From the IMG/VR virus record IMGVR_UViG_2693429748_000009: 34,559 nt of DNA, one strand, 5' to 3'. Of the stretch, positions 651 to 32,625 are shown one piece after another (the first letter of the stretch is position 1; each line of letters starts with the position of its first letter). The stretch comes from a virus. Lineage: Duplodnaviria; Heunggongvirae; Uroviricota; Caudoviricetes. The notes under the pieces were generated by a model, which was not told the DNA's origin, searched no databases, and was given only the letters and a program-made list of their open reading frames with translations. Both the position numbers and the translations under genes were made by a program.

Positions 651-714
651 TGAGGTAGCCTGAGTTTAACGGACACTCCTTCCTGAAATAGAATGGCATC
701 AGAAGGAGCTAATA

Positions 715-1017: not shown

Positions 1018-1052
1018 TCGAACAATGGCGACAACAATTTCCCATTGAAGCG

Positions 1053-1871
1053 ATGTGTCAGGTATTTGGTGTATCCAGGAGCGGTTATTACAACTGGGTA
1101 CAGCATGAACCCTCAGACAGAAAACAAAGTGATGAGCGGCTAAAACTGGAGATTAAGGTGGCACATATCCGCACTCGCGAAACATATGGAACCCGGCGGC
1201 TCCAGACGGAGCTGGCAGAGAATGGCATCATCGTTGGTCGTGACCGACTGGCACGTCTTCGTAAGGAGCTAAGGCTACGCTGTAAGCAGAAACGCAAGTT
1301 CAGAGCGACTACGAACTCGAACCACAATCTGCCAGTTGCGCCAAATCTGCTGAACCAGACGTTCGCTCCTACAGCACCAAATCAGGTCTGGGTGGCGGAC
1401 CTGACGTATGTTGCCACACAGGAGGGATGGTTGTACCTCGCTGGCATCAAAGATGTTTATACGTGCGAAATTGTCGGCTACGCCATGGGAGAGCGCATGA
1501 CAAAAGAGCTGACAGGTAAAGCCCTGTTTATGGCGCTCAGGAGCCAGCGCCCACCTGCCGGGCTAATCCACCACTCTGATCGAGGTTCACAGTACTGCGC
1601 ATACGATTACCGGGTCATACAGGAGCAGTCTGGTCTGAAAACATCAATGTCGCGTAAAGGTAACTGTTACGACAACGCTCCGATGGAAAGCTTCTGGGGA
1701 ACGCTGAAAAATGAGAGCCTGAGCCACTATCGTTTTAATAACCGGGATGAAGCCATCTCAGTAATACGGGAATACATTGAGATTTTCTACAATCGTCAGC
1801 GTCGTCACTCTCGTCTGGGGAATATCTCCCCGGCAGCCTTCAGGGAAAAATATCATCAGATGGCTGCTTAA
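1053..1871 (+). CDS. IS600 OrfB (integrase-like catalytic domain; probably expressed as an OrfAB fusion by -1 frameshift)
   Basis: 272 aa. IS3-family organisation; the orfB frame is open upstream to the slippery site at 966..972. Confidence 0.8.
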   Translation: MCQVFGVSRSGYYNWVQHEPSDRKQSDERLKLEIKVAHIRTRETYGTRRLQTELAENGIIVGRDRLARLRKELRLRCKQKRKFRATTNSNHNLPVAPNLLNQTFAPTAPNQVWVADLTYVATQEGWLYLAGIKDVYTCEIVGYAMGERMTKELTGKALFMALRSQRPPAGLIHHSDRGSQYCAYDYRVIQEQSGLKTSMSRKGNCYDNAPMESFWGTLKNESLSHYRFNNRDEAISVIREYIEIFYNRQRRHSRLGNISPAAFREKYHQMAA

Positions 1872-1914
1872 AAAAAGAACAAATGGTAGTGTCCGCTATT
1901 GCCAGTACACCTCA

Positions 1915-1925
1915 NNNNNNNNNNN
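1915..1925. other. Assembly gap (11 N) directly after the IS600 right end
   Basis: Run of n characters in the sequence. Confidence 0.99.
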
Positions 1926-3078
1926 CGAGCTGGCTGCGGCGCTGGGCAACGACCCGAATTTTGCGACCACCATGACTAACGCGCTTGCGGGTAAGCAACC
2001 GAAAGATGCCACCCTGACGGCGCTGGCCGGACTTACTACTGCGGCAGGCAAGTTTCCGTATTTTACGGGGAATGATGTCGCCAGCCTGGCAACCCTGACA
2101 AAAGTCGGGCGGGATATTCTTGCGAAATCGACCGTTGCTGCCGTTATCGAATACCTCGGTTTACGAGAACTCGGCACAAGCGGGGAGAAAATACCGTTAC
2201 TCAGTACAGCGAATACCTGGACTAATCGACAAACATTCAGCGGTGGCCTTTCTGGTGAACTATCCGGCAATGCTTCTACAGCTGCAAAATTAAAAACTGC
2301 CAGGAAAATAAGCAATGTGGCTTTTGATGGTTCCTCCGATATCACATTAAAAGCAAGTCATGTTGGTGCGTTTGCCTTAGGGAAAACAGGAAGCACCGTT
2401 GCGAATGATAAAGCAGTTGGATGGAACTGGAGTAGCGGAGCCTATAACGCAACTATTAGTGGTGCATCAACGTTAATTATTCATTTTTATATGGGAGAAG
2501 GAAGTTGTCCTGCAGCTCAGTTTCGGATTAATTATAAAAATGGCGGTATTTTTTATCGTTCAGCCCGTGATGGTTATGGTTTTGAAGCCGACTGGTCCGA
2601 ATTTTACACCACCAGAAAACCTTCAGCAGGAGATGTTGGTGCACTGCCGTTATCTGGTGGTCAACTGAATGGTGCACTGGGTATCGGAACATCCAGTGCT
2701 CTTGGCGGTAATTCGATTGTATTGGGTGATAATGACACGGGCTTTAAACAAAAAGGCGATGGTAATCTGGATGTTTATGCTAATAACGTCCATGTTATGC
2801 GCTTTGTCTCCGGAAGCATTCAAAGTAATAAAACCATAAATATTACGGGACGTGTTAATCCCTCGGATTACGGTAACTTTGATTCCCGCTATGTGAGAGA
2901 TGTCAGACTTGGCACACGAGTTGTTTAGACCATGAAGAAAGGCGTGATGTATGAAAAATCAGGCCATGTAATCACGGGGCTTGGTATTATCGGTGAAGTC
3001 GATGGTGATGATCCGGCAGTATTCAGACCAATACAAAAGTTAATTAACGGAACATGGTATAACGTATCGCAGGTATAA
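1926..3078 (+). pseudogene. Tail-fibre gene 3' portion (P2 H-like shared region followed by variable distal segment), 5' end lost in the gap, with an in-frame amber TAG at 2926..2928
   Basis: Translation ELAAALGNDPNF...AVIEYLGL matches the minus-strand H gene at 8569..9639 at about 98% nucleotide identity. After RLGTRVV comes TAG, then the same frame continues [49 protein letters not shown] to TAA at 3076..3078. That tail is the C-terminus kept in the other fibre cassettes (compare ...[17 protein letters not shown] at 6236). Confidence 0.7.
2144..2169. other. gix/pix-like 26-bp crossover site, variant, at the constant/variable junction of the fibre gene
   Basis: TTATCGAATACCTCGGTTTACGAGAA. 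Compare the gix-type consensus TTATCCAAAACCTCGGTTTACAGGAA (recalled from memory). Inverted relative to the sites at 7124 and 8614. Confidence 0.55.
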
Positions 3079-3080
3079 TC

Positions 3081-3614
3081 ATGCAGCATTTAAAAAACAT
3101 TGTCGCAGGTAATCCAAAAACCGTTGAACAATACCAGCTAACAAAGAATTTTGATGTTATCTGGTTATGGTCCGAAGATGGAAAAAATTGGCATGAGGAA
3201 TTAAAAAACTTTCAGGAGGATACAATAAAACTGGCTTACACAGTTGAGGGAATAATTATTGCTATAGACAAGGATGTATCAGCAATTAATCCAGAAGGTT
3301 TAAGTGTCGTTGAGTTGCCTGATATTACAGCAAATCGCCGGGCTGATATTTCGGGCAACTGGATGTTCAAAGATGGTGCGGTGATAAAGCGAACTTATAC
3401 CGAGGAAGAGCAAAGGCAACAAGCGGAAAATGAAAAGCAGAGCCTGCTGCAGCTCGTCAGGGATAAAACCCAGCTGTGGGACTCTCAGCTACAGCTGGGC
3501 ATCATTTCCGATGAGAATAAACAAAAATTAACCGAGTGGATGCTCTATGCGCAGAAGGTCGAATCCACAGACACCTCCAGCCTGCCAGTAACGTTTCCCG
3601 AACAACCAGAATGA
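3081..3614 (+). CDS. Tail-fibre assembly protein (Tfa; P2 G / Mu U family)
   Basis: 177 aa. C-terminal half is nearly identical to the Tfa at 5145..5678. The stop codon overlaps the IS600 left end. Confidence 0.8.
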
Positions 3615-3675
3615 GGTAGCCTGAGTTTAACGGACACTCCTTCCTGAAATAGAATGGCATCAGAAGGAGCTAATA

Positions 3676-3978
3676 ATGAGCAGAAAAACCCAACGTTACT
3701 CTAAAGAGTTCAAAGCCGAAGCTGTCAGAACGGTTCCTGAAAATCAACTTTCGATCAGTGAAGGCGCTTCCCGATTATCTCTTCCTGAAGGCACTTTAGG
3801 ACAATGGGTTACCGCCGCCAGAAAAGGGCTCGGTACTCCTGGTTCCCGCACGGTGGCTGAACTGGAATCTGAAATTCTGCAACTGCGTAAGGCGTTAAAT
3901 GAAGCTCGCCTTGAGCGAGATATATTAAAAAAAGCAACAGCGTATTTTGCACAGGAGTCGCTGAAAAATACGCGTTAA
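3676..3978 (+). CDS. IS600 OrfA
   Basis: 100 aa, one residue different from the copy at 715..1017. Confidence 0.85.
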   Translation: MSRKTQRYSKEFKAEAVRTVPENQLSISEGASRLSLPEGTLGQWVTAARKGLGTPGSRTVAELESEILQLRKALNEARLERDILKKATAYFAQESLKNTR

Positions 3979-4013
3979 TCGAACAATGGCGACAACAATT
4001 TCCCATTGAAGCG

Positions 4014-4832
4014 ATGTGTCAGGTATTTGGTGTATCCAGGAGCGGTTATTACAACTGGGTACAGCATGAACCCTCAGACAGAAAACAAAGTGATGAGCGG
4101 CTAAAACTGGAGATTAAGGTGGCACATATCCGCACTCGCGAAACATATGGAACCCGGCGGCTCCAGACGGAGCTGGCAGAGAATGGCATCATCGTTGGTC
4201 GTGACCGACTGGCACGTCTTCGTAAGGAGCTAAGGCTACGCTGTAAGCAGAAACGCAAGTTCAGAGCGACTACGAACTCGAACCACAATCTGCCAGTTGC
4301 GCCAAATCTGCTGAACCAGACGTTCGCTCCTACAGCACCAAATCAGGTCTGGGTGGCGGACCTGACGTATGTTGCCACACAGGAGGGATGGTTGTACCTC
4401 GCTGGCATCAAAGATGTTTATACGTGCGAAATTGTCGGCTACGCCATGGGAGAGCGCATGACAAAAGAGCTGACAGGTAAAGCCCTGTTTATGGCGCTCA
4501 GGAGCCAGCGCCCACCTGCCGGGCTAATCCACCACTCTGATCGAGGTTCACAGTACTGCGCATACGATTACCGGGTCATACAGGAGCAGTCTGGTCTGAA
4601 AACATCAATGTCGCGTAAAGGTAACTGTTACGACAACGCTCCGATGGAAAGCTTCTGGGGAACGCTGAAAAATGAGAGCCTGAGCCACTATCGTTTTAAT
4701 AACCGGGATGAAGCCATCTCAGTAATACGGGAATACATTGAGATTTTCTACAATCGTCAGCGTCGTCACTCTCGTCTGGGGAATATCTCCCCGGCAGCCT
4801 TCAGGGAAAAATATCATCAGATGGCTGCTTAA
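4014..4832 (+). CDS. IS600 OrfB
   Basis: 272 aa, identical to the copy at 1053..1871. Confidence 0.8.
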   Translation: MCQVFGVSRSGYYNWVQHEPSDRKQSDERLKLEIKVAHIRTRETYGTRRLQTELAENGIIVGRDRLARLRKELRLRCKQKRKFRATTNSNHNLPVAPNLLNQTFAPTAPNQVWVADLTYVATQEGWLYLAGIKDVYTCEIVGYAMGERMTKELTGKALFMALRSQRPPAGLIHHSDRGSQYCAYDYRVIQEQSGLKTSMSRKGNCYDNAPMESFWGTLKNESLSHYRFNNRDEAISVIREYIEIFYNRQRRHSRLGNISPAAFREKYHQMAA

Positions 4833-4875
4833 AAAAAGAACAAATGGTAGTGTCCGCTATTGCCAGTACACCTCA

Positions 4876-5142
4876 GAGTTTTACACCACAACCCGCAAAC
4901 CCTCTGCGGGAGATGTTGGTGCATATACGCAGGCAGAATGTAACTCAAGGTTTATTACAGGTATTCGCCTTGGTGGTCTGTTATCTGTTCAGACATGGAA
5001 TGGTCCCGGATGGTCTGACAGGTCAGGTTATGTTGTTACCGGTTCCGTTAACTCAAACAGAGATGAACTAATTGATACAACTCAGGCAAGGCCAATTCAG
5101 TATTGCATTAATGGGACGTGGTATAACGCGGGGAGTATTTAA
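4876..5142 (+). pseudogene. 3' part of the tail-fibre gene interrupted at 650 (distal receptor-binding end)
   Basis: Frame EFYTTTRKPSAGDVGAYTQ...ARPIQYCINGTWYNAGSI* continues ...GFEADWSE from 1..650. GAG at 4876..4878 repeats GAG at 648..650. Confidence 0.75.
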
Positions 5143-5144
5143 CG

Positions 5145-5678
5145 ATGATGCACTTAAAAAACATTTCTGCTGGTAATCCTGAAACAAAAGAGCAATACCA
5201 GCTAACGAAACAATTTAACATCAAATGGCTTTATACAGAGGATGGGAAAAACTGGTATGAGGAACAAAAGAACTTTCAGCCTGATACGTTGAAAATGGTC
5301 TATGACCACAACGGCGTTATTATTTGTATTGAAAAGGATGTTTCAGCAATTAATCCGGAAGGCGCAAGCGTCGTTGAGGTTCCTGATATTACAGCAAATC
5401 GCCGGGCTGATATTTCAGGTAAATGGATGTTCAAAGATGGCGTAGTGATAAAGCGAACTTATACCGGGGAAGAGCAGAGGCAACAAGCGGAAAATGAAAA
5501 GCAAAGCCTGCTACAGCTCGTCAGGGATAAAACCCAGCTATGGGACTCACAGCTACGGCTGGGCATTATTTCCGACGAGAATAAACAAAAATTAACCGAG
5601 TGGATGCTCTATGCGCAGAAGGTCGAATCCACAGACACCTCCAGCCTGCCAGTAACGTTTCCCGAACAACCAGAATGA
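5145..5678 (+). CDS. Tail-fibre assembly protein (Tfa)
   Basis: 177 aa, begins 2 nt after the fibre stop; paralogue of 3081..3614. Confidence 0.85.
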   Translation: MMHLKNISAGNPETKEQYQLTKQFNIKWLYTEDGKNWYEEQKNFQPDTLKMVYDHNGVIICIEKDVSAINPEGASVVEVPDITANRRADISGKWMFKDGVVIKRTYTGEEQRQQAENEKQSLLQLVRDKTQLWDSQLRLGIISDENKQKLTEWMLYAQKVESTDTSSLPVTFPEQPE

Positions 5679-5681
5679 GAG

Positions 5682-5711
5682 AAGGCCCGCTATCGGGCCT
5701 TAATTTTTATT
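5682..5711. terminator. Hairpin plus T-run between the convergent tfa genes
   Basis: AAGGCCCG-CTAT-CGGGCCTT followed by AATTTTTATT. Confidence 0.6.
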
Positions 5712-6234
5712 CAGGCTTTTGTGGCCATTCAGGATTTGCCGTATCCACACGGCTGACCAGAACACTGTAGCGTTCCCATGCTTCCAGTCGTGTGCGTTCC
5801 TCGTCCGTCGCCATATTCAGCCTGACAGCGCGTTCCAGCGGCTGGATGACTGATTCAGCTTCGGAAAGCAATGCGGCCTTTTGTGATTCGGCCTGTTGTT
5901 GCAGTTCCTGTTCTGTATATTCCCTCTTTACTACTTTACCATCCAGAAACATCCATTTTCCGTTATTGTCTGCGTGACGATTTGCCGTAATATCAGGAAC
6001 TTCAACTATGCTTAGCCCTTCAGGATTAATAGTTGAAACGTCTTTACTGACAGCAACGATGATGTTGTTCTCATCGTAAGCAATTTTTATGGTGTCTGGC
6101 TGAAAATTCTTTTGTTCCTCATACCAGTTTTTGCCATCTTCGCAAAAGAGCCATACCACGCCCGCTTTTTTAGTTAGCTGGTATTGTTCCGGTGTTTTCG
6201 GATTCCCGGCCTTAATATTTTTCAGGTGCATCAT
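5707..6234 (-). CDS. Tail-fibre assembly protein (Tfa), opposite orientation
   Basis: [22 protein letters not shown]... with the conserved Tfa N-terminus. The ORF-track start at 6270 overlaps the fibre gene, so the start at 6234 is preferred. Confidence 0.8.
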
Positions 6235-6235
6235 C

Positions 6236-7141
6236 TTAAACACTCCCCACGTTGTACCATATTCCCCCAATCAATTTCTGAATTGGCCTTCTGGCAACAG
6301 TGTCGACAATATCATCCGCATTGCTGTTAATTGCGGCTGTTAAAACATAACCTGACGCATCGCCAAAGCCGTAGTCGCGCCATACGTTTTTATATTCAAT
6401 GCTGCCAAGACGAATATCCCGAACGACATGATTATGCAGCCATGTGCTTAACCAGTTGTTTTCCCACACTGAACCATAAATATCGCCACTAGACGCAACT
6501 TGCGCACCACTTCCCAGCGCAAATCCCCCATCTGTTTTAAAAATGAAATCACCACCACCATCTGAACCGTTATTAATATGAACACCATCACCACCGTTAT
6601 CTTTCCACAAAAACATACGAATTCTTCCGTCTTCGTTGGCGAATGTAATGTGGTGGCGGTAATTACTTTTTAATCTAAAATTGCTGCCATTAGATTCAAT
6701 ATCTTTATAAAGATGTAATCCTAACTCATCAATATGTCCGATGCGCGAACCATTTGAATAGAAGCTAATAATACCATCTCCATCTTGCCTAAATCCGGTG
6801 TCGTTATCTCCCAGAACAATGGAGTTTTCACCCAGTGCGTTATCAGTAGCTCCAATAGCTAGACCTCCTTTAATTTTGGCCCCGTGGCTGACAGATATAG
6901 CACCTGTTCTCAGATTTATAGCGAATGGCCTTAATGGGCCGATATTACCGTTTTCGCCTTGTCCTTCAGCCGTCGGAATGAAATGAAGAAAATCTTCTGA
7001 ACGACGGAAAATTAGACCGAAGGTATCATTGAAAATTCGCAGCGCATTCACCGTGCCAATTTTCAGTTCTCCGGTCATTTTATCGCCGGAACGCTGAACG
7101 GCGTTACCAGCCTTGTTTACCGTTTCCTGTAAACCGAGGTT
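6236..7141 (-). CDS. Alternative tail-fibre C-terminal cassette with no start codon of its own; would be expressed only after fusion to the constant part of the fibre gene by inversion
   Basis: Minus-strand frame is open from just below the stop at 7142..7144 and reads [29 protein letters not shown]...[18 protein letters not shown]. Its first codons are encoded by the crossover site at 7124..7149. Confidence 0.7.
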
Positions 7142-7149
7142 TTAGATAA
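7124..7149. other. gix/pix-like 26-bp crossover site next to the invertase gene
   Basis: TTCCTGTAAACCGAGGTTTTAGATAA, one mismatch to the recalled gix consensus. The outer half-site carries an in-frame TAA, as expected for the invertase-proximal site. Confidence 0.65.
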
Positions 7150-7203
7150 TGGCGGTTTCTGGCCTGCATGGCATGATTTGTGCTTTTGGACGGGAGATTC
7201 AGC

Positions 7204-7436
7204 GTGCTGATTGGCTATGTAAGGGTATCAACAAATGACCAGAATACAGACCTGCAACGAAACGCTCTTGTTTGTGCAGGATATGAACAAATATTTGAAG
7301 ATAAATTAAGCGGAACAAGGACAGGCCGACCTGGATTAAAACGTGCTTTAAAGCGCCTTCAAAAAGGTGACGCACTGGTTGTCTGAAAACTGGACTGACT
7401 GGGTCACTGTATGCGGCATCTTGTCGTGCTGGTGGT
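7204..7436 (+). pseudogene. pin: Pin/Gin/Hin-family serine DNA invertase, inactivated: two nonsense codons then truncation into a tfa 3' remnant
   Basis: GTG-start frame MLIGYVRVSTNDQNTDLQRNALVCAGYEQIFEDKLSGTRTGRPGLKRALKRLQKGDALVV reaches TGA at 7384..7386 where Trp is expected; a second TGA at 7396..7398. At about 7437 the frame merges into tfa-derived sequence. Confidence 0.75.
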
Positions 7437-7531
7437 GGAAGCCTAGAAAAAGTATCGGGTGTTGCTGAACCGTGTTGATACATCAACTGCACCTGATATT
7501 GAGTGGCCTACGAACCCTGTCAGGGAGTAAT
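7437..7531 (+). repeat. tfa 3'-end remnant (copy 1 of a 72-bp direct repeat) fused downstream of the pin pseudogene
   Basis: Encodes (E)[23 protein letters not shown]..., a lambda-Tfa-like C-terminus. Repeated at 8486..8557 with two mismatches. Confidence 0.7.
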
Positions 7532-7584
7532 CATTGGGATTATGCCGCAGCACGTCTTAAGCAAGAACGTGCTGCGGTTGGATG

Positions 7585-8253
7585 CTATTTTTTCCCTGAA
7601 GCGGAAAACATTACTACAGTACCTTGAACCCTGGTTTTAACATTCTCGAAATGCTCTGAGAGTATATGTGTTAAGCCTTCTTCGGAATCTTTTGTGTTTG
7701 AAAAGATGCCTTTCTGATTGTAAATGCGCATCAGTTTTTGACCGAAGCTATTGTGCACAACTCCATCGCCAAGAATTGTGGCTCCGTATAGAGTTCCATC
7801 ATCAGTTAAGGCCTGCGCCGCATTGCGTATTACACAGCTTTTTGTAGATATATTTCCAGGCAGGCAGTGAAGAAGGTAAAACATGGAAATGGAATCAAAT
7901 TGACCATGTAACGCCGCGGGATAAGGTTCAAAAACATCATGGCTAATTTTATGTTTAATTTTTGATTCCCCAGCCCTTGTAGATGCCGCGTTCAGGCTAG
8001 CTTCGTTCAAATCCATTAAAGATATCAGACTACTCTCAGGTACGTGAGTAAGGTAAAACCCAGTTCCAACACCAATATCCAGATGGTTGTTACCTAAATG
8101 TTCCAGAAAGTGTGGAAGAAGGTGTTCCTTTGTAGGACATCCCCATGCAAGCCGATTTGATACTCCCAAAACCCACCAGTCATAAAGCTTTAGGGTAAGT
8201 GGTGTGTAAATTTTAGCCCCATCATCTGTGTTTTTTTTCATTAATTTCACCAT
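7585..8253 (-). CDS. Class-I SAM-dependent methyltransferase (small-molecule/RNA type, not an obvious DNA methyltransferase), AT-rich
   Basis: 222 aa with motif I LDIGVGTGFY. No DPPY/NPPY or C5-methyltransferase motifs seen. Low GC compared with its neighbours. Alternative start at 8241. Confidence 0.7.
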   Translation of the reverse strand: MVKLMKKNTDDGAKIYTPLTLKLYDWWVLGVSNRLAWGCPTKEHLLPHFLEHLGNNHLDIGVGTGFYLTHVPESSLISLMDLNEASLNAASTRAGESKIKHKISHDVFEPYPAALHGQFDSISMFYLLHCLPGNISTKSCVIRNAAQALTDDGTLYGATILGDGVVHNSFGQKLMRIYNQKGIFSNTKDSEEGLTHILSEHFENVKTRVQGTVVMFSASGKK

Positions 8254-8355
8254 ATTATAGTTTTATTTGTGAATTAAATCAATTATGGCGATGAATTACA
8301 AGGGGTTAAATGCTGCCGCAGCATAGCGATATTGAAATAGCCTAGTATGCTTCGA

Positions 8356-8557
8356 TACAGCAGGAGCCGAATGGCTGGAAGACCGTCACCACACAGTTCT
8401 ACATCCAGGAATTTAGTGAGTATATTGCGCCACTGCAGGATGCTGTAGATCTGGAGATCGCAACGGAGGAAGAAAACTCGTTGCTGGAAGCCTGGAAGAA
8501 GTATCGGGTGTTGCTGAACCGTGTTGATACATCAACTGCACCTGATATTGAGTGGCC
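8356..8557 (+). pseudogene. Tail-fibre assembly gene 3' fragment (copy 2 of the 72-bp repeat), running into the gap
   Basis: Frame ...[49 protein letters not shown], lambda Tfa C-terminus-like; upstream in-frame TAG. Confidence 0.6.
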
Positions 8558-8568
8558 NNNNNNNNNNN
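8558..8568. other. Assembly gap (11 N)
   Basis: Run of n characters. Confidence 0.99.
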
Positions 8569-9639
8569 GCCGTTCTGGTTTTTCTGTAATGCGCCAGAAG
8601 CCTGATTTACCGTTTCCTGTAAACCGAGGTATTCGATAACGGCGGCAACGGTCGATTTCGCAAGAATATCCCGCCCGACTTTTGTCAGGGTTGCCAGGCT
8701 GGCGACATCATTCCCCGTAAAATACGGAAACCTGTCTGCCGCAGTAGTAAGTCCGGCCAGCGCCGTCAGGGTGGCATCTTTCGGTTGCTTACCCGCAAGC
8801 GCGTTAGTCATGGTGGTCGCAAAATTCGGGTCGTTGCCCAGCGCCGCCGCCAGCTCGTTCAGTGTGTTCAGTGCATCAGGCGAAGAGTCTACAAGTGCGG
8901 CAATCGCAGCCATAACGAAAGCCGTGCTTGCGATTTGGGTATTATTCGTTCCCTGTCGCGCAGTTGGTGTTGTTGGCGTTCCGGTCAGTGCCGGGCTGTT
9001 TAATGGGGCTTTCTTGTTCGTTTCATCCATTACTGCCTTAACGGCTTTTGGTGTCGCTGCCAGCGTTTCAGACGTGCTGTTGGTGGCGTTGCTGAGCTGG
9101 ACAAGGCCTTTTGCGGTCAGCGAGGCGTCCGGGTGACGTCGTGACTGTTCATGCTCTTTCAGTTTGTCATCCACGTAATTCACTGTGGCCATCACCATGG
9201 TGTTATCCACGGTAAGCGCCACAGTGGCAGTGCTGGATACGGTCAGAATGGTGCGAAATGTTTGTGCACGTCCGGATCCTTCGGCAACGGTTGGCTTGTA
9301 ACTTTCGGCAGTATTGCCTACCGCGATCAAATCGCCGTGCTCATCAAACACACCAATTTCCCGGATCCAGAATCCGCCCGTTTCAGGAGGAATAACCAGC
9401 TCCGCAATAATGTGGTTCTGATGTGTTGCGTCCAGGGTGACGCGATTAACGGTATGTCGCCACACCTCATGCACAAGACGGGTCTGCTTACTGTCTGGCG
9501 TGGGTAAAGTACCGCCGCCGTCACCCACGGCCATATGTGTCAGGCGGACAGGTTTCCCATCTGGCGCGGTTGCCTGCGCTAATTTTTTTGCACCCGTATC
9601 GGTGATAATGGTTTTAAATTTTCGTGTTGTGGTACTCAT
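8569..9639 (-). CDS. P2 gpH-like tail fibre, N-terminal and shared part; 3' end lost in the gap
   Basis: MSTTTRKFKTIITDTGAKKL... with repeated LTAKG/SATNSTSETLAATPKAVK-type motifs. Sits after gpI/gpJ as in P2. The ORF-track residues beyond the gap are artefact. Confidence 0.8.
8614..8639. other. gix/pix-like 26-bp crossover site inside the P2-like H gene
   Basis: TTCCTGTAAACCGAGGTATTCGATAA on the plus strand; codes ...[11 protein letters not shown] on the minus strand. Confidence 0.6.
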
Positions 9640-9641
9640 GC

Positions 9642-10172
9642 TTAATCGTCCGGATAAATGGTAATGACTTCACCGTCGTAAGTTGCTGCTGCCGCGAAAA
9701 TATCTCCCTGAATCTCCTGAATGATATTCAGCCCTGTCATGTGGCGGCTGACCGGGCGGGCATCAGCAATCAACCGCTCCATTTCCAGATACATTTCCTC
9801 CGTCACGCCACTGTCCAGCGTGCCAACATCAATCTTGAATGTTCCGGGTTCGCCGTTGAACTCCCACCACTCAGACACGCGAATGAGGTATCCCAGCGGC
9901 TCAATGGCCCGTCGCAGGGCGCTGATGGTTCCTTTGTGTCGGTGTATCAGCCATGCATCACGAATCACCTGTCGCTTTGTCTCTTCCGGCCAGTTGCGAT
10001 CCCAGCGGTCAACGGAAAACGCCCAGGCGAGATAAGGCAGCAGATGCACCGGGCAGGTGTCCGGCGACCACAGCGTGTTGAGGTCTGCCGGAATGTCTGT
10101 AATGCGTGTTCCGACGGCTTCGGCACAACGCATGAAATTGCTGGCTGATGGTGGTAACAGTGAATTACTCAT
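9642..10172 (-). CDS. Baseplate assembly protein (P2 gpI-like)
   Basis: Synteny plus motif LAWAFSVDRWD. Start chosen at MSNSLLPP. Confidence 0.75.
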   Translation of the reverse strand: MSNSLLPPSASNFMRCAEAVGTRITDIPADLNTLWSPDTCPVHLLPYLAWAFSVDRWDRNWPEETKRQVIRDAWLIHRHKGTISALRRAIEPLGYLIRVSEWWEFNGEPGTFKIDVGTLDSGVTEEMYLEMERLIADARPVSRHMTGLNIIQEIQGDIFAAAATYDGEVITIYPDD

Positions 10173-22779: not shown

Positions 22780-23739
22780 TTACTCCTTGTCCATTGCGTA
22801 CAGCCCATTAACCAGAGCAAACTGTGGCACCCCGTCCGCGATGAAAGTCGCATTAACTCCGCAGGCTTCGCGGATAGCGGGTGCCACAATCTCCGCCCCT
22901 CCACCGACAACCATCACCCGCCCGTAACCCGAAAAACCCGCCAGCGCGCGGATCACGCGTTGTTTCAGTGTTTCTTCCTTTTCACGAATAACCGCCATCA
23001 GGCTGGCGTAATGCGCGTCATTGTGGATGTGCTGGCGCAGCCAGGCTTCATCATGGCGATGTTCGATAATGGTATTGGCGATGTGGTGACTGGTGCGCAT
23101 ACCGTTAGTGGCCATCACCGACAGTACGGCATCGGCCATCAGAGAAACGCCTACGTGTGGATCGCAAAACACCTGGCTGATACCTGCCAGTTGCCCCTGA
23201 ACCTTTGCCACATCCAGCGTGGTTCCGCCCAAATCCACAATCAGCAGGGATTCAAACGGACTCATGTCAGCCAGTGCCTTAAAGCCAGCCGGAATGGATT
23301 CAGGCATAACCCGCACGTTACGGATAGTGAATGCTTCGCCGTTCTGGTACTCCACCGGGCGCATAACGTTCGCTTTTTTGCGGTTGATGTTGGCCATGTC
23401 CGGCTGTGCGTTTGTGTCGAAATACTCGCTCAGTGGCAGGGTGACAACCACATCCACCTCCTGTGGCGTGATGCCTGATTTGACCAGCGCGTGATGAATG
23501 GCAATGACATTTACATCGCTGTACTGGTATTGCGTGTCGGTTGTCTGGACAAAGCGATCGCTGACCGGATCAAAACCATAGCGCACGCCATCAAGCATGT
23601 AGTTCGCGGGCTGCATGCCACCGAACGGCGCAGACCATTCCGACTTGAAGCTGTTCGGGCTGATGGCGTTGCGGCGTTCGCCGTTCTCAGTCCATGCCAG
23701 CTTGATGTTGGTGGAGCCGTCGTCGATACAAATTTTCAT
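22780..23739 (-). CDS. parM: ParM/StbA-family actin-like segregation ATPase
   Basis: 319 aa: MKICIDDGSTNIKLAW..., YSDVNVIAIHHAL, MPESIPAG, DLGGTTLD, GGGAEIV. Close to R1 ParM as recalled. Confidence 0.8.
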   Translation of the reverse strand: MKICIDDGSTNIKLAWTENGERRNAISPNSFKSEWSAPFGGMQPANYMLDGVRYGFDPVSDRFVQTTDTQYQYSDVNVIAIHHALVKSGITPQEVDVVVTLPLSEYFDTNAQPDMANINRKKANVMRPVEYQNGEAFTIRNVRVMPESIPAGFKALADMSPFESLLIVDLGGTTLDVAKVQGQLAGISQVFCDPHVGVSLMADAVLSVMATNGMRTSHHIANTIIEHRHDEAWLRQHIHNDAHYASLMAVIREKEETLKQRVIRALAGFSGYGRVMVVGGGAEIVAPAIREACGVNATFIADGVPQFALVNGLYAMDKE

Positions 23740-28698: not shown

Positions 28699-28977
28699 TT
28701 ATTTTGTCATCTGCACGTATTTCTCTGCGTTTCTGATGGTTTTCAGGAAAATTGCGAAGAGATTTACTTTGCGTTTTGTGTTTCTTCCTTCTTGAGTAAC
28801 GGGAATTACCGATCTATCAGCCTGCCTTCTTACAGCGAGAATGCTTTGATTTGTGCGTTTCGCATAATCCTCTAGGCTTTCTTCAAGTACCGGTAGCCCA
28901 TGTTCATTACGGTATGGGTAGAACGCCGCCAAACGCTCAAAATCCGCTTGTTCGTATGTGTTAAGGACTTTTGCCAT
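28699..28977 (-). CDS. First gene of the early operon, in the position of Cox/Apl (function not confirmed by sequence)
   Basis: 92 aa, divergent from the C repressor gene. Confidence 0.45.
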   Translation of the reverse strand: MAKVLNTYEQADFERLAAFYPYRNEHGLPVLEESLEDYAKRTNQSILAVRRQADRSVIPVTQEGRNTKRKVNLFAIFLKTIRNAEKYVQMTK

Positions 28978-29072
28978 GGTGTGATAACCTATTCAATCTG
29001 GTGCTATTTGTGGCTCTTTGTAGCGTCAAGTGGTACTCAACTGATAACCAATATAGTATTCAGGTGCACACC
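28978..29072. promoter_or_regulatory. Divergent early/repressor promoter-operator region (lysis-lysogeny switch)
   Basis: Intergenic region between divergent genes; position only. Confidence 0.45.
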
Positions 29073-29384
29073 ATGTCAATAGAGATATCAAAGAAGCTAA
29101 AAGCAATTCGAGAATCTGAGGGGCTTAGTCAGGCAAAGTTCGCGGATTCAATAGGTATTGCGGTTGGTACGGTTAAGCAATACGAGACTGGTATTCGAGG
29201 TGTGGGAACGGAGGTTTTACTGAAAATCACAATGCACCCGGAATTTAAAAAATACACTACGTGGTTGATGAGTAACGAAACAAATGAGGCTGCTGGGCAG
29301 ATCAGTCCTTCTCTCTCCCCTGATGGGCCAGAAAACACATCGTCTTCTCAAAAATCCCGCAAGACTGGCACACAGCCCGGCTAA
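29073..29384 (+). CDS. Immunity repressor (P2 C-like HTH)
   Basis: MSIEISKKLKAIRESEGLSQAKFADSIGIAVGTVKQYETG (HTH) and FKKYTTWLMSNE tail; AGGTG SD. The track N-terminus from 28971 is probably spurious. Confidence 0.7.
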   Translation: MSIEISKKLKAIRESEGLSQAKFADSIGIAVGTVKQYETGIRGVGTEVLLKITMHPEFKKYTTWLMSNETNEAAGQISPSLSPDGPENTSSSQKSRKTGTQPG

Positions 29385-29433
29385 TCATGGAACGCTGGGG
29401 GCATGGTGGTCTTGTAACGCTGGGGCTTCACGA

Positions 29434-30411
29434 ATGAGCATAAAATCAATTCCGGGAGGGTATCTTCTTGACATGCGTCCTGAGGGGCGTAAAGGCAAAC
29501 GCATTCGCAAAAAATTTAAAACGAAATCGGATGCAGTTTTATATGAGCGGTGGGTGCTGGCGCAACAGCATAACAATGAGTGGAAAGGAAACTCCATTGA
29601 TCGCCGTCCGCTGTCAGTGCTTATTGACTTGTGGTGGAAATACCACGGCCAGCTAATGAAGTCAGGGCATAACACGCGCCTTAAATTGCTGCGCTTGAGT
29701 GAGGCAATGGATGACCCGTGCGTGCATAAACTTAATACAACGATGCTCACCGAGCTACGTGTGTCCAGGATAGAGCAGGGGATACAGCCCAGCACCATAA
29801 ATCGAGAGATTGGGGCGTTAAGCGCGATGTTTACCGCACTCATCTCATCCGGCCATTTTCTTAACGATAACCCCGTTCAAGGCCTTAAAGGAATGAAGGT
29901 TAACGAGCGTGAAATGGGATATCTGAGTAAGTCTGAATGTGTTCAGTTGCTGGATGCACTGGCTGAAAATCCCGATGAACGGCTGGCCGTCGAAATCCTT
30001 CTGTCGACCGGGGCGCGATGGGGCGAGGTAGCGGCACTGGAGCAGCGCCGTGTTCTTCATTGTCGAATCACTTTTTCAAAAACGAAGAACAGCAAAAACC
30101 GTACCGTTCCTATTTCTGAAAGCCTGTTTGAAAAGATCAAAAAACGGGGCGGGAAACTGGTGTTTCCGACGCTGGATTATTCATTGGTTCGCGATGTCAT
30201 CAAAACGGTCGCACCTGATGTTCCTGACGGCCAGGCTGTTCATGCGCTGCGCCACACCTTCGCCAGTCATTTCATGATGAACGGCGGCAATATTCTGACG
30301 CTCCAGAAAATTCTGGGGCACGCAAAGATTCAGACAACGATGATTTATGCCCATCTTGCGCCGGATTACTTGCAGGATGCGGTGAGGTTTAATCCCTTGG
30401 GAGGAATGTAA
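29434..30411 (+). CDS. int: Tyrosine integrase (P2 Int family)
   Basis: LSTGARWGEVAAL ... HALRHTFASHFMMNGGNILTLQKILGH ... MIYAHLAPDYL. Start MSIKSIPGGY preferred. Confidence 0.85.
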   Translation: MSIKSIPGGYLLDMRPEGRKGKRIRKKFKTKSDAVLYERWVLAQQHNNEWKGNSIDRRPLSVLIDLWWKYHGQLMKSGHNTRLKLLRLSEAMDDPCVHKLNTTMLTELRVSRIEQGIQPSTINREIGALSAMFTALISSGHFLNDNPVQGLKGMKVNEREMGYLSKSECVQLLDALAENPDERLAVEILLSTGARWGEVAALEQRRVLHCRITFSKTKNSKNRTVPISESLFEKIKKRGGKLVFPTLDYSLVRDVIKTVAPDVPDGQAVHALRHTFASHFMMNGGNILTLQKILGHAKIQTTMIYAHLAPDYLQDAVRFNPLGGM

Positions 30412-30413
30412 CT

Positions 30414-30914
30414 ATGGAAATAAAAAAACCTACAAAAAAAGAGTTATATGACTATTTACTATCGAAATATATAGAAGATAAATGCAAAGAAGAAGCTGAT
30501 GAAATCAATAAGAAGTCGATGAGTCGTGTCAAAAAACATAAAGAGCGGCTGATGGAGATTACGCCAGAAATCTTCTTCCGTTTCTTGTCTGAGAAGGGGG
30601 TCTCCAGTGTCTGCCCTTCATGTGGATCGTCGCGATTATCTGTTCCAGAAAGTATGGATCTTTGCTGGGATAAAAATAAGAAACCAGAAAATTTTAACAA
30701 TCTACCCCTGGAGGAACAGAGTGAGTTAATTAAAGAGAACATAAAGCATTATGTATCTTATGCTTTTTTGGGTGATGTTAAGAGCATACCTGATATGCGC
30801 AAAACTTATTACACGCTGCATTGCCTGAATTGTGGTTACCTGAGCCTTTATCGTACGTCTGCGGTGCTGAAGTGGTTGGAGAAAGACAAAGCGCAGGATG
30901 GTGATAATGGGTAA
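30414..30914 (+). CDS. Hypothetical protein with split CxxC...CxxC (zinc-ribbon-like), AT-rich
   Basis: 166 aa with CPSCGSS and CLNCG; starts 2 nt after the int stop. Confidence 0.6.
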   Translation: MEIKKPTKKELYDYLLSKYIEDKCKEEADEINKKSMSRVKKHKERLMEITPEIFFRFLSEKGVSSVCPSCGSSRLSVPESMDLCWDKNKKPENFNNLPLEEQSELIKENIKHYVSYAFLGDVKSIPDMRKTYYTLHCLNCGYLSLYRTSAVLKWLEKDKAQDGDNG

Positions 30915-31452
30915 TGTAGCAAGAAATCTTTTCGGTAATTCAGCAGGTAGTGTGTCGCATTCTGAGCGTGATGTGCTTTATCATGGTGGCGATGGCGGCA
31001 GTAGTGGAGGCGGAATGTCAGATAAACTTGAAAGGCGAATTGAGCGGCTCGAAGGTGATTTATCGCTAACAAGAAACGACCTTGCGACGCTTGCTGAACG
31101 CACTACAAACCTCTCAACTAAAGCCGATGTTGGTGAGGTGAAAGGTGAACTCAAAGCAGACATAGCACATCTGAAAGGTGATCTTGAATGCGATATTGCG
31201 AATCTGAAAGGTGAGCTTAAATCTGATACAGCTAACCTGAAAGAGCAGCTCAAATCAGACATTAACAGCCTGAAGGGTGAGCTTACCGAAGCGATGGATA
31301 AACGCTTTGACAAGATTATGGATGAGATGAATCGGCGGTTTGACAAGGTTGATGATAATACGAAGTGGCGTTGGAGTGGCATTATTGTGCCAGTGTGCAC
31401 AACCATTTTCACAGCGGCGGTTGCTGTATTTGTTGCTAAATTTGTTGGCTGA
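30898..31452 (+). CDS. Coiled-coil protein with five 11-residue repeats and a C-terminal transmembrane helix
   Basis: Repeats LKGDL/LKGEL...; C-terminal IIVPVCTTIFTAAVAVFVAKFVG. Start ambiguous (30898, 30907 or 31015). Confidence 0.6.
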   Translation: MVIMGNVARNLFGNSAGSVSHSERDVLYHGGDGGSSGGGMSDKLERRIERLEGDLSLTRNDLATLAERTTNLSTKADVGEVKGELKADIAHLKGDLECDIANLKGELKSDTANLKEQLKSDINSLKGELTEAMDKRFDKIMDEMNRRFDKVDDNTKWRWSGIIVPVCTTIFTAAVAVFVAKFVG

Positions 31453-31561
31453 TGATCCACAAATTGACCACATCTCTGTTATTTGTTGTGGTTGGCTGTG
31501 TTTTTGTGTGTCTGTAAGTCTTTGATAATTACCTAACTTATTGATTTTTGTTTGTGTTTAT

Positions 31562-31587
31562 GGCCGCTCTGCGGCCTTTTTTCTTTT
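31562..31587 (+). terminator. Rho-independent terminator upstream of btuC
   Basis: GGCCGC-TCT-GCGGCC followed by TTTTTTCTTTT. Confidence 0.65.
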
Positions 31588-31644
31588 CACTGTCGAAGAG
31601 TCACCGTAAAATCAACGCCATGACACTTCAGCAGAACGGATACC

Positions 31645-32625
31645 ATGCTGACACTTGCCCGCCAACAACAGCGACAAAATATTCGCTGGTTATTATGCCT
31701 GTCAGTTTTGATGCTGCTGGCGCTTCTCTTAAGCCTTTGCGCCGGTGAACAATGGATTTCGCCAGGTGACTGGTTTACTCCTCGTGGCGAACTGTTCGTC
31801 TGGCAAATTCGCCTGCCACGTACGCTGGCTGTATTGCTGGTTGGTGCGGCGCTGGCTATATCCGGCGCTGTAATGCAGGCGTTGTTTGAAAATCCTCTGG
31901 CAGAACCTGGACTACTTGGCGTCTCTAACGGCGCAGGCGTGGGGCTTATCGCCGCGGTATTGCTTGGGCAAGGGCAACTCCCCAACTGGGCGCTAGGGCT
32001 GTGTGCGATTGCTGGCGCGCTTATCATCACTTTAATACTCTTACGTTTCGCCCGTCGTCATCTTTCGACCAGTCGGTTATTGCTGGCTGGCGTTGCATTA
32101 GGGATTATCTGTAGCGCACTAATGACGTGGGCTATCTACTTTTCCACCTCTGTTGATTTACGTCAGCTGATGTACTGGATGATGGGCGGTTTTGGCGGCG
32201 TAGACTGGCGGCAAAGCTGGCTGATGCTGGCATTGATCCCCGTGTTGTTGTGGATCTGTTGTCAGTCCAGGCCGATGAATATGTTAGCACTTGGCGAGAT
32301 CTCGGCGCGGCAACTGGGTTTACCCCTGTGGTTCTGGCGCAATGTGCTGGTGGCAGCGACCGGCTGGATGGTTGGCGTCAGTGTGGCGCTGGCGGGTGCT
32401 ATCGGCTTTATTGGTCTGGTGATCCCACATATTCTTCGGTTGTGTGGTTTAACCGATCATCGCGTATTACTTCCCGGCTGCGCGCTGGCAGGGGCGAGCG
32501 CAGTGCTGCTGGCCGATATTGTAGCGCGCCTGGCATTAGCTGCCGCAGAGCTGCCTATTGGCGTGGTCACCGCAACGTTGGGTGCGCCGGTGTTTATCTG
32601 GTTATTGTTAAAAGCAGGACGTTAG
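31645..32625 (+). CDS. btuC: Vitamin B12 ABC transporter permease
   Basis: 326 aa, polytopic membrane protein; matches BtuC as recalled; followed by btuE and btuD. Confidence 0.9.

What the first reader, a model, noticed from the sequence alone, without database searches (positions are those of the whole stretch)
30414..31587. AT-rich two-gene cassette between the integrase and the host junction
The integrase stop at 30411 is followed 2 nt later by a 166-aa protein with a split CxxC...CxxC motif (about 34% GC by eye). That gene overlaps a coiled-coil protein built from five 11-residue repeats with a C-terminal transmembrane anchor. A terminator follows at 31562..31587, then host btuC. In P2 the attachment site directly follows int, so these two genes look like inserted cargo at a position where prophages commonly carry exclusion or defence genes. 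The pairing of a zinc-ribbon protein with a membrane-anchored coiled coil is not a system I recognise.
Basis: partly seen in the sequence, partly recalled or inferred. Interest (0 to 1): 0.7.

Follow-up and report, generated by a model that had tools for sequence, protein, structure and literature searches.

The report
Hypervariable two-gene prophage cargo module
Between the integrase and the attachment site of a P2-like prophage sits a rare, fast-changing gene pair, a small zinc-binding protein with no known structural relative plus a membrane-anchored coiled-coil stalk, which also occupies the rexAB slot of lambda-like prophages and is therefore a good but untested candidate for a new phage-exclusion system.

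Summary
ORF1 (30414-30914) encodes a 166-aa protein whose four cysteines are invariant across its family. ORF2 is a DUF1640/CCDC90-like coiled-coil protein with a C-terminal membrane anchor.

The hairpin at 31562-31586 is not the cassette's own terminator. It is the 25-bp att core, a copy of the host ihfA terminator. The cassette therefore lies inside the prophage.

It sits in a replaceable slot. Of 299 E. coli genomes with this integrase, 23 carry this pair, 100 carry two other very divergent alleles of the same pair, and 158 carry an unrelated gene.

The same pairing recurs in Salmonella, Klebsiella and Providencia P2-like prophages. In lambdoid prophages it sits directly after cI, where lambda has rexAB.

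ORF1's confident model (pLDDT 94.7) has no match among solved or viral structures. No defence-system model matches either protein.

ORF2 has a copy-number-variable 11-residue stalk. It also has two conserved starts: one coupled to ORF1, and an internal GGAGG+ATG (9/10 loci, P ≤ 4.5e-4).

The function is untested. A repressor-operon exclusion or abortive-infection module is the best reading (about 0.45).

The parts
29073..29384 (+). C-type immunity repressor gene (HTH), first gene of the lysogeny operon
   Evidence: PGAP annotation in the 99.9%-identical strain RM8426, mapped to the window. The same HTH gene precedes int in all P2-like loci.
29434..30411 (+). P2-type tyrosine integrase (325 aa)
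   Evidence: Pfam Int_N 1.5e-28 and Phage_integrase 1e-19. Found at 95% nt identity or more in 299 E. coli genomes.
30414..30914 (+). ORF1 = 'ZR', a 166-aa four-cysteine zinc-ribbon protein. It starts 2 nt after the int stop. A GGGAGGA Shine-Dalgarno sequence lies within the last int codons.
   Evidence: Family invariants are C67, C70, C137, C140 and W154. AF2 pLDDT 94.7. phrog_4293, 8e-23, function unknown.
30612..30623 (+). First CxxC knuckle (C67-P-S-C70)
   Evidence: Read from the sequence. Invariant in 57 family members.
30822..30833 (+). Second CxxC knuckle (C137-L-N-C140)
   Evidence: Read from the sequence. Invariant in 57 family members.
30907..31452 (+). ORF2 long form (181 aa), a DUF1640/CCDC90-like tail-anchored coiled-coil protein. 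Its start overlaps the ORF1 stop by 8 nt. An alternative in-frame ATG lies at 30898.
   Evidence: An overlapping or abutting start is conserved in all P2-like and lambdoid loci. The tail frame has 0 stops, against 1-9 in the other two frames, in 10 of 10 loci.
30985..31014 (+). Glycine-rich linker coding region (GGDGGSSGGG). It contains a GGAGG at 31006-31010.
   Evidence: The glycine-rich stretch is conserved in every partner protein. GGAGG lies 4-9 nt before the internal ATG in 9 of 10 loci. Synonymous resampling gives P<5e-5 with E. coli codon usage and 4.5e-4 with the tails' own Gly usage.
31015..31452 (+). ORF2 short form (145 aa), from the conserved internal ATG. This is the PGAP-annotated CDS.
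   Evidence: The AF2 helix begins at this Met.
31111..31128 (+). Beta-layer motif L-S-T-K-A-D at the start of the stalk
   Evidence: T71, K72 and D74 are invariant in the ORF2 family. The motif is defined for DUF1640 in PMC4786415. Profile matches to 6H9L and 5APZ.
31144..31308 (+). Five 11-residue (33-nt) repeats of the stalk. Copy number varies between close relatives.
   Evidence: Register. TRF array 31139-31243. Relatives of 112, 123, 134, 145 and 156 aa differ by whole repeats.
31375..31446 (+). C-terminal transmembrane anchor. Only 2-6 residues follow it.
   Evidence: KD19 2.43 at residues 159-177. AF2 helix 157-180. A TM within 1-10 residues of the C-terminus in all partner proteins.
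31453..31561 (+). Conserved 109-bp phage arm between the cargo slot and the att core. It presumably carries the Int arm-type and Cox sites. 32% GC.
   Evidence: This is the only part of the cassette region shared by about 306 genomes that carry different cargo alleles. By analogy with the annotated P2 attP arms.
31562..31586 (+). att core GGCCGCTCTGCGGCCTTTTTTCTTT (attR copy). It is a copy of the ihfA intrinsic terminator and also terminates the cassette.
   Evidence: Three-way alignment of attL, attB and attR. K-12 comparison. Terminator scan. Unique in the window.

Best explanation
This is a two-gene accessory ('moron') module of temperate phages. It is carried in a replaceable cargo slot between int and the attP arm of a P2-like prophage integrated at the ihfA terminator.

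Shown:
- The genes are co-oriented with, and abut, the C-int lysogeny operon. int stops 2 nt before ORF1, and ORF1 and ORF2 overlap by 8 nt.
- No promoter-like or terminator-like site separates them, apart from low-scoring terminator-like hairpins inside the int and ORF2 coding sequence. The att-core hairpin ends the unit.
- ORF1 ('ZR') is a soluble four-cysteine protein with no catalytic-looking conserved residues.
- ORF2 is a DUF1640-like protein with five parts: a disordered N-terminal peptide of about 35 residues, a glycine linker, one helix of about 115 residues with a beta-layer motif, a variable number of 11-residue repeats, and a C-terminal TM.
- ORF2 keeps two starts, one coupled to ZR and one internal with its own GGAGG.

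Inferred mechanism:
1. In the lysogen the pair is read from Pc together with C and int.
2. ORF2 inserts as a tail-anchored trimer in the inner membrane. Its stalk projects about 17 nm into the cytoplasm.
3. ZR docks on the distal tip or tail and serves as the fast-evolving specificity subunit. It recognises a component of a superinfecting phage at the membrane.
4. Engagement then either blocks establishment of the incoming genome or clusters the anchors and collapses the membrane potential, as in Rex-type abortive infection.
5. The long and short ORF2 isoforms would set how many tails each trimer carries.
For: Position inside the prophage:
- att core at 31562-31586.
- P2 itself has no room between int and attP.

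Replaceable slot behind a nearly identical integrase (299 genomes):
- This allele: 23 genomes.
- Short ZR plus partner: 86 genomes.
- Divergent ZR plus near-identical stalk: 14 genomes.
- Unrelated 131-aa gene: 158 genomes.
- With int 99-100% identical, ZR is only 25-56% identical.

The pairing is conserved down to about 25% identity, in several hosts and at three further attachment sites:
- Salmonella, E. coli, Providencia, Klebsiella.
- A yhbY/ftsH site and a hinT site.
- Feature table for all loci.

In lambdoid prophages the pair sits directly after cI and before gam-recT-exo. That is the rexAB slot.

Accessory genes co-transcribed with prophage repressors are mostly exclusion genes: RexAB, 933W Stk, 434 Hex, K139 (PMC3564112).

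The int-att interval is a described minor P2 defence hotspot. In the same study, 6 of 8 randomly chosen unknown loci in P4 hotspots protected against phages (PMC13586616).

Architecture:
- ZR invariants and model.
- ORF2 family: 14 of 18 members hit PF07798, and T-K-x-D is invariant.
- Profile matches to beta-layer coiled coils 6H9L and 5APZ.
- AF2: disordered tail, single helix, TM.
- Dual start.
Against: - No phenotype was tested and no defence-model hit exists, so the functional claim rests on position and variability alone.
- Neither protein has an enzymatic or known effector domain.
- A bundle of three single TM helices is a weak candidate for a pore.
- The bulk of ORF2 is predicted to be cytoplasmic, whereas many classical exclusion proteins act in the periplasm.
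- At least one repressor-operon gene, 434 Hex, acts on lysogen stability.
- Repeat-number variation could be neutral slippage.
- The loci used for the start-site statistic share ancestry, so they are not fully independent.
- No cultured virulent or temperate phage record apart from one Klebsiella P2-like record carries the module. No plasmid record does either.
Confidence: 0.45

Rival explanations
1. Lysogeny-stability or induction modulator. Like 434 Hex, the pair acts on the prophage's own switch, for example by tethering or sequestering a regulator at the membrane. It would tune spontaneous induction or excision rather than exclude other phages.
For: The pair has the same operon position as Hex, which is co-transcribed with the repressor and lowers spontaneous induction (PMC3564112). 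It always sits next to the immunity repressor or next to int and attP.
Against: A function tied to one repressor or integrase should co-vary with it. Here ZR alleles of 25-56% identity sit behind 99-100% identical integrases. The slot can also hold an unrelated gene (158 genomes). In Providencia the pair occurs with no adjacent repressor or integrase.
Confidence: 0.15
2. Toxin-antitoxin or addiction module. The tail-anchored ORF2 is a membrane toxin and ZR its translationally coupled antidote, and together they stabilise the prophage. This overlaps mechanistically with abortive infection.
For: The arrangement is two small genes, upstream gene first, with an overlap of a few nucleotides. There is a membrane-inserting second product. 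Two isoforms from one gene recall holin/antiholin regulation (the lambda S105/S107 comparison is from my own knowledge). A Hok/Gef gene at the other end of the same prophage shows that such cargo is tolerated.
Against: No TA family matches in Pfam, NCBIfam or PADLOC. A helix of about 115 residues with variable length is unnecessary for a simple membrane toxin.
Confidence: 0.15
3. Lysogenic-conversion factor acting on host physiology (envelope, division, virulence), or cargo with no selected function for the host.
For: The 23 carriers listed are largely STEC serotypes O26, O157, O145 and O103. DUF1640 relatives in eukaryotic organelles act as membrane scaffolds (PMC7519068).
Against: The enrichment probably reflects which genomes are sequenced. 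Other alleles occur in avian, porcine and human commensal or ExPEC strains. Conservation of four Cys, of the beta-layer motif, of gene order and of two start sites at 25% identity argues for selection.
Confidence: 0.15
4. Accessory factor for site-specific recombination. ZR would bind DNA at the adjacent attP arm and help Int or Cox.
For: It lies between int and the conserved arm and core. Zinc ribbons often bind nucleic acids; there is a weak Zn_ribbon_13 match at E 0.0056, below the cut-off.
Against: In lambdoid prophages the pair is next to cI, not next to int or att. 158 genomes with the same int and arm lack it altogether. A membrane-anchored partner has no obvious role in recombination.
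Confidence: 0.05

Closest known systems
DUF1640 / CCDC90-like family (Pfam PF07798; MCUR1, CCDC90B, yeast Put6/Put7) and the beta-layer (alpha/beta) coiled coils of the Lupas laboratory (Tcar0761, PDB 5APZ; 6H9L)
   Same: ORF2 shares the family signature: a beta-layer motif ([aliphatic]-[A/S]-T-K-x-[D/E], here LSTKAD) at the start of a coiled-coil stalk, followed by a C-terminal TM (PMC4786415). 14 of 18 family members match PF07798, best E 6.4e-12. The best PDB profile hits are 6H9L and 5APZ; in 6H9L the aligned part is 11-residue ATKEDIEALRK repeats. NCBI names it DUF1640/CCDC90.
   Different: The window protein itself scores 24.5 bits, below the 33.5-bit Pfam cut-off. It has no folded head domain, only a disordered peptide plus glycine linker. 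Its stalk repeat number varies between close relatives. It has a conserved internal start. It is encoded by phages next to a dedicated zinc-ribbon partner. No function is known for any prokaryotic member.
Lambda RexA/RexB
   Same: A two-gene unit co-oriented with and immediately downstream of the immunity repressor, between cI and the PL operon. It combines one soluble and one membrane protein and is expected to be expressed in lysogens.
   Different: No sequence relationship was detected: no PADLOC, Pfam or PHROG hit to Rex. RexB is a polytopic membrane protein, whereas ORF2 is a single-pass tail-anchored coiled coil (the RexB topology is from my own knowledge). The phenotype is untested.
Other repressor-operon accessory genes: 933W Stk, 434 Hex, K139 exclusion gene
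   Same: Non-essential genes read from the maintenance promoter together with the repressor. Most exclude heterologous phages (PMC3564112).
   Different: These are unrelated proteins: a kinase and a small soluble protein. Hex also stabilises lysogeny, which keeps that rival alive.
P2 accessory loci (old, tin, fun/Z) and the int-att minor hotspot of P2-like prophages
   Same: Variable cargo at fixed positions of an otherwise conserved P2 backbone. The int-att interval holds 3% of recognised P2 defence systems (PMC13586616).
   Different: This module is not one of the recognised systems. It is also not confined to P2-like phages.
Dual-start lysis genes such as lambda S (S107/S105)
   Same: One membrane-protein gene with two conserved in-frame starts, giving products that differ at the N-terminus.
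   Different: Here the isoforms differ by about 36 residues rather than 2. The upstream start is coupled to another gene. Use of both starts is inferred, not shown. The comparison with lambda S rests on my own knowledge.
Small zinc-ribbon proteins (Pfam Zn_ribbon_13/DUF2082, NrdR N-terminal ribbon, TFIIS-type ribbons)
   Same: Two CxxC knuckles on beta-hairpins. Weak sub-threshold matches exist.

Membership tests
DUF1640 / CCDC90-like (PF07798), for ORF2 | Score above the Pfam gathering threshold | tested here: inconclusive
   The window protein scores 24.5 bits against a 33.5-bit cut-off. 14 of 18 aligned relatives match at E<1e-3, best 6.4e-12.
DUF1640 / CCDC90-like (PF07798), for ORF2 | Beta-layer motif [aliphatic]-A-T-K-[polar]-[D/E] at the start of the stalk | tested here: met
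   LSTKAD at residues 69-74. T71, K72 and D74 are invariant in the family. Motif definition from PMC4786415. Variants FATKSD, FVTKTD, MCTKED and YAKKED occur in the partners.
DUF1640 / CCDC90-like (PF07798), for ORF2 | Integral membrane protein with a C-terminal transmembrane helix after the coiled coil | tested here: met
   KD19 2.43 at residues 159-177. AF2 TM helix 157-180. The same holds in all partners.
DUF1640 / CCDC90-like (PF07798), for ORF2 | Trimeric assembly (beta-layers are described in trimers) | not testable with these tools
   Only monomer prediction was possible. Trimer status is inferred from the motif and from profile matches to 6H9L (3 chains) and 5APZ.
Zinc-ribbon proteins, for ORF1 | Four metal-ligand cysteines in two CxxC knuckles, conserved across the family | tested here: met
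   C67, C70, C137 and C140 are invariant in 57 sequences down to about 20% identity.
Zinc-ribbon proteins, for ORF1 | Match to a curated zinc-ribbon family or to a solved zinc-ribbon fold | tested here: not met
Zinc-ribbon proteins, for ORF1 | Zinc actually bound | not testable with these tools
   Needs metal analysis of purified protein.
Known anti-phage defence systems (PADLOC-DB 2.0) | Significant match of either protein, or of other alleles, to a defence-system model | tested here: not met
   ORF1: one 14-bit hit. ORF2: only coiled-coil stretches of LmuB and ZorA at 21 bits or less. Eight other module proteins and two non-module neighbours gave nothing, or hits of 14 bits or less.
RexAB-type repressor-operon exclusion module | Position immediately downstream of, and co-oriented with, the immunity repressor | tested here: met
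   Lambdoid loci L038 and L047: cro-like | cI -> ZR -> partner -> gam, recT, exo. P2-like loci: C -> int -> ZR -> partner.
RexAB-type repressor-operon exclusion module | Homology to RexA or RexB | tested here: not met
   No Pfam, PHROG or PADLOC match to Rex proteins.
RexAB-type repressor-operon exclusion module | Exclusion or abortive-infection phenotype in lysogens | not testable with these tools
   Requires plating assays.
P2-like int-att cargo hotspot | Genes lie between int and the att site, inside the element, and vary between otherwise similar prophages | tested here: met
   att core mapped. Four alleles behind the same int. Hotspot described in PMC13586616.
Type II toxin-antitoxin modules | Match of either protein to a known toxin or antitoxin family | tested here: not met
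   None in Pfam, NCBIfam or PADLOC.

The most novel reading that the evidence does not exclude
The ZR-partner pair is a previously undescribed anti-phage system of temperate phages. A zinc protein of new fold acts as a hypervariable sensor. It sits on the tip of a membrane-anchored trimeric alpha/beta coiled coil whose length and tail occupancy are tuned by repeat number and by two translational starts. This would give the first function for any prokaryotic DUF1640/CCDC90 (MCUR1-family) protein. It would also be a Rex-like module shared by P2-like and lambdoid phages.
Probability: 0.4. Interest if true: 0.75.

Novelty: new variant of a known kind. Interest (0 to 1): 0.6.

Why it matters
If the pair excludes phages, it adds a defence module built from two uncharacterised protein families. 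It would be expressed from the only operon that is active in a lysogen and shared by two unrelated groups of temperate phages.

It is present in about 2% of complete E. coli genomes at this single site (123 of 5426).

It would also give a first handle on what prokaryotic DUF1640 proteins do. These are relatives of the mitochondrial MCUR1/CCDC90B scaffolds.

The locus offers natural experiments: alleles of 25-56% identity behind identical integrases, stalks of 0-7 repeats, and two isoforms.

Practically, it shows that PGAP annotates ORF2 from the internal start and misses some ZR genes entirely. The ZR gene is unannotated in all 8 listed records of the 14 genomes carrying that allele.

Tried and rejected
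- **Megablast and tblastn of the cassette and of ZR against GenBank phages:** no match. Only distant DUF1640 hits appeared for ORF2.
- **tblastn of ZR against plasmids:** none.
- **Pfam, NCBIfam, PADLOC:** nothing above threshold.
- **PDB sequence search with the ZR profile:** nothing.
- **The search for related loci with the broad alignment:** failed because it had no conserved stretch. The search with P0102 found nothing.
- **Rfam scan of 28900-31800:** only a sub-threshold STnc540 match across the att and btuC leader. An RNA element is therefore rejected.
- **Literature:** no paper mentions the protein accessions or the pairing. PDB code 6H9L is not in the searchable library and the Adlakha 2019 paper is not held.
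- **A dedicated cassette terminator:** rejected, because the hairpin is the att core.
- **Host origin of the genes:** rejected.
- **Antisense ORFs 30452-30742 and 30981-31460:** treated as by-products of the coding strand. They were not pursued.
Full report
**1. What is in the sequence**

The integrase ORF ends at 30411. An ATG at 30414 opens a 166-aa ORF (30414-30914), and a second ORF runs to 31452.
- ORF1 has C67-P-S-C70 and C137-L-N-C140.
- In its 181-aa form, ORF2 has a glycine-rich stretch (residues 27-36) and the motif LSTKAD (69-74).
- An unbroken 11-residue register runs from residue 69 to the membrane segment, with five clean repeats at 80-134.
- The strongly hydrophobic C-terminus has KD19 2.43 at residues 159-177.
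- TRF sees the repeats as a 33-nt period at 31139-31243.
- GC content is 38.5% for ORF1, 45.2% for ORF2 and 41.1% for the cassette, against 53.1% for the rest of the prophage and 52.0% for the host flank.

**2. Where the prophage ends**

I aligned the window with the empty ihfA-btuC site of K-12. Identity starts at about 31560.

I then aligned three sequences: attL from the 99.9%-identical strain RM8426, attB from K-12, and attR from the window. This defines a 25-bp core, GGCCGCTCTGCGGCCTTTTTTCTTT, at 31562-31586. The core occurs once in the window.

The core is the intrinsic terminator of ihfA. It regenerates the ihfA terminator at attL and closes the cassette at attR.

The cassette is inside the prophage. 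Reference P2 has its attP core 79 bp beyond the int stop, its P' arm overlaps the end of int, and C and int are read from Pc. Here 1,150 bp separate the int stop from the core.

**3. A replaceable slot**

The cassette is complete in only 23 of 5426 complete E. coli genomes, always next to btuC. The integrase, at 95% nt identity or more, is in 299 genomes.

In most of these, similarity stops a few bases before the int stop. It resumes only in the last 109 bp before the core, at 31453-31561. This conserved stretch is presumably the displaced arm with Int and Cox sites.

| Content of the slot | Genomes |
|---|---|
| This pair (166 + 181 aa) | 23 |
| 120-aa + 145-aa pair | 86 |
| Unannotated ~132-aa gene + an ORF2 whose stalk is 99% identical to ours but whose tail differs | 14 |
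| Unrelated 131-aa gene | 158 |

The 120-aa and ~132-aa proteins carry the ORF1 family motifs (F..FL…C.SCG, C..CG…Y.A…W). Their partners have the ORF2 architecture.

With integrases 99-100% identical, ZR identity is 56%, 25% and 28%. Mosaic breakpoints fall inside ORF1 and in the glycine-rich region of ORF2.

**4. The two families**

ORF1 ('ZR'):
- 18 clusters at 90% identity, all Enterobacterales.
- 91 representatives among 1.84 billion in an exhaustive profile search.
- Across 57 diverse members the invariant residues are the four cysteines and W154. The conserved core is residues ~40-162, and many members lack the N-terminal helix.
- phrog_4293 (function unknown) is the only library family that matches.
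- AlphaFold gives a confident model (pLDDT 94.7, pTM 0.79).
- The family profile hits no PDB sequence.

ORF2:
- NCBI names it DUF1640/CCDC90.
- The window protein is below the Pfam cut-off (24.5 against 33.5 bits), but 14 of 18 relatives match PF07798, best E 6.4e-12.
- The family invariants include T71, K72 and D74. These form the T-K-x-D of the beta-layer motif that Hartmann et al. describe at the start of the stalk of DUF1640 membrane proteins (PMC4786415).
- The best PDB profile hits are 6H9L and the Tcar0761 alpha/beta coiled coil 5APZ. 6H9L has three chains and 11-residue ATKEDIEALRK repeats.
- AlphaFold on the monomer gives a disordered tail (residues 1-35), one helix at 38-152 and a TM helix at 157-180.
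- Close relatives have lengths of 112, 123, 134, 145 and 156 aa and differ by whole repeats.

**5. The pairing and its genomic positions**

The partner gene starts between -38 and +20 nt of the ZR stop in every P2-like and lambdoid locus examined. It always has the glycine-rich stretch, a following helix, usually a TKxD-type motif, and a TM within 1-10 residues of the C-terminus.

| Context | Arrangement |
|---|---|
| E. coli and Salmonella, ihfA/btuC site | C -> int -> ZR -> partner -> att |
| yhbY/ftsH site | same |
| hinT site | same; ZR cut by an IS |
| Metagenomic P2-like contig | same |
| 32-kb Klebsiella P2-like record | same |
| Providencia | pair next to ogr, no integrase beside it |
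| Two groups of lambdoid prophages | O <- ydaT <- cro-like, then cI -> ZR -> partner -> … gam -> recT -> exo |

The lambdoid position is exactly the slot of rexA-rexB in lambda.

A more distant ZR branch (21-29% identity) lacks the coiled-coil partner. It heads a conserved block of ZR, a 55-70-aa two-TM protein, DUF305 and csy1-4. Once, this block lies downstream of a P2-type repressor-integrase pair.

**6. Two starts in ORF2**

PGAP starts ORF2 at 31015. Gene callers on other assemblies use the start that overlaps ZR. Both appear to be conserved.
- The ~31-44 codons upstream of the internal Met contain no stop in frame in 10 of 10 non-redundant loci. The other two frames carry 1-9 stops.
- A short 'ERDV'-like motif recurs in this tail.
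- A perfect GGAGG lies 4-9 nt upstream of the internal ATG in 9 of 10 loci. It is made by a GGA-GGN glycine pair.
- Synonymous resampling expects 1.4 loci with E. coli codon usage (0 of 20,000 trials reach 9). It expects 3.6 loci with the tails' own glycine codon usage (P = 4.5e-4).
- The loci share ancestry, so these P values are optimistic. Even so, the pairs compared are down to 25-45% identical in protein.

I infer, but have not shown, that a long isoform (coupled to ZR, carrying the tail) and a short isoform (stalk only) are both made.

**7. Interpretation**

Shown:
- Position inside the prophage.
- Operon-like arrangement behind the immunity repressor in two phage groups.
- Conserved pairing and allele replacement.
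- The architecture of both proteins.
- Absence from every curated defence, TA or domain library searched and from the literature searched.

From established knowledge:
- Genes read with the prophage repressor are expressed in lysogens and mostly exclude other phages: RexAB, 933W Stk, 434 Hex, K139 (PMC3564112).
- The int-att interval of P2-like prophages is a minor defence hotspot. Unknown genes in P4 hotspots protected in 6 of 8 tests (PMC13586616).
- A TM at the extreme C-terminus implies post-translational, tail-anchored insertion with the N-terminal part in the cytoplasm (my own knowledge).

Inferred: ORF2 forms a trimeric stalk of about 17 nm on the cytoplasmic face of the inner membrane. 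ZR is the variable recognition subunit that docks on its tip or tail. Encounter with a superinfecting phage leads to exclusion or Rex-like abortive infection. I put about 0.45 on an anti-phage role.

The rivals are a Hex-like lysogeny stabiliser, a toxin-antitoxin or addiction pair, host-directed conversion, and a recombination accessory. They are listed above with their tests.

**8. Novelty and verdict**

The location type is known, and ORF2 belongs, at the edge, to a known domain family. The ZR family, its fold, the obligate pairing, the variable stalk, the dual start and the shared use by P2-like and lambdoid phages are not described in anything I could search.

I rate it a new variant of a known kind, namely repressor-operon prophage cargo with a soluble and a membrane component. 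Interest is 0.6.

Noticed in passing
window 1-9700: The tail-fibre region is rearranged. It holds two IS3-family copies (orfA/orfB at 715-1871 and 3676-4832, 99% identical). It also has three tail-fibre-assembly (Caudo_TAP) genes (3081-3614 +, 5145-5678 +, 5707-6270 -) and gp37-like fibre tips on both strands (1777-2928 +, 6236-7078 -). A methyltransferase ORF (7585-8253 -) sits between the fibre genes. This looks like alternative fibre-tip and chaperone cassettes interrupted by IS elements.
   Followed up: partly
L033, L034, L036, L043, L046 (distant ZR relatives): Five ZR representatives, each less than 50% identical to the others, head a conserved block. The block is ZR, a 55-70-aa two-TM protein, DUF305, an unusually short csy1 (241-288 aa), csy2, csy3 and csy4, with no cas1 or cas2-3 in view. 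In L046 the block lies downstream of an HTH repressor and a P2-type integrase.
   Followed up: partly
window 31006-31017 and equivalent positions in L004, L012, L014, L016, L030, L038, L041, L042: A conserved internal GGAGG+ATG lies inside the partner gene, formed by a GGA-GGN glycine pair. PGAP annotates many homologues from this internal start, giving 103-156 aa products. Other gene callers use the upstream start.
   Followed up: yes
L042 1515-1928 (E. coli strain 2D) and 13 other genomes: A ~132-137-aa ZR-family gene between int and the DUF1640 gene is not annotated in any of the 8 listed RefSeq records; features under the match read 'none'.
   Followed up: yes
L003 (RM8426, same prophage, left end outside the window): There is other cargo in the same prophage: a 501-aa PIN-domain protein between gpD and ogr, and a Hok/Gef gene between ogr and attL. 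There is also a serine O-acetyltransferase at the Z/fun position, and ParM, a partition protein and two hypothetical genes at the tin/old hotspot. The ParM gene is in the window at 22780-23739 (-).
   Followed up: no
window 31562-31612: The att core is the ihfA terminator. Integration therefore leaves ihfA terminated at attL and puts a phage-borne copy in front of btuC. A weak sigma-70-like site (31584-31612) follows directly in host DNA, so read-through from the cassette into btuCED is conceivable.
   Followed up: no
L040 1309-1704 (E. coli EC556 and 157 other genomes): The commonest occupant of the int-att slot is an unrelated 131-aa protein (WP_000416304.1) with no Pfam or PADLOC match.
   Followed up: partly
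L010 6869-8472 (Providencia rettgeri): In one Providencia locus the pair is followed by two further co-oriented genes of 309 and 216 aa without Pfam hits, before ogr. The 309-aa protein has no PADLOC hit.
   Followed up: no
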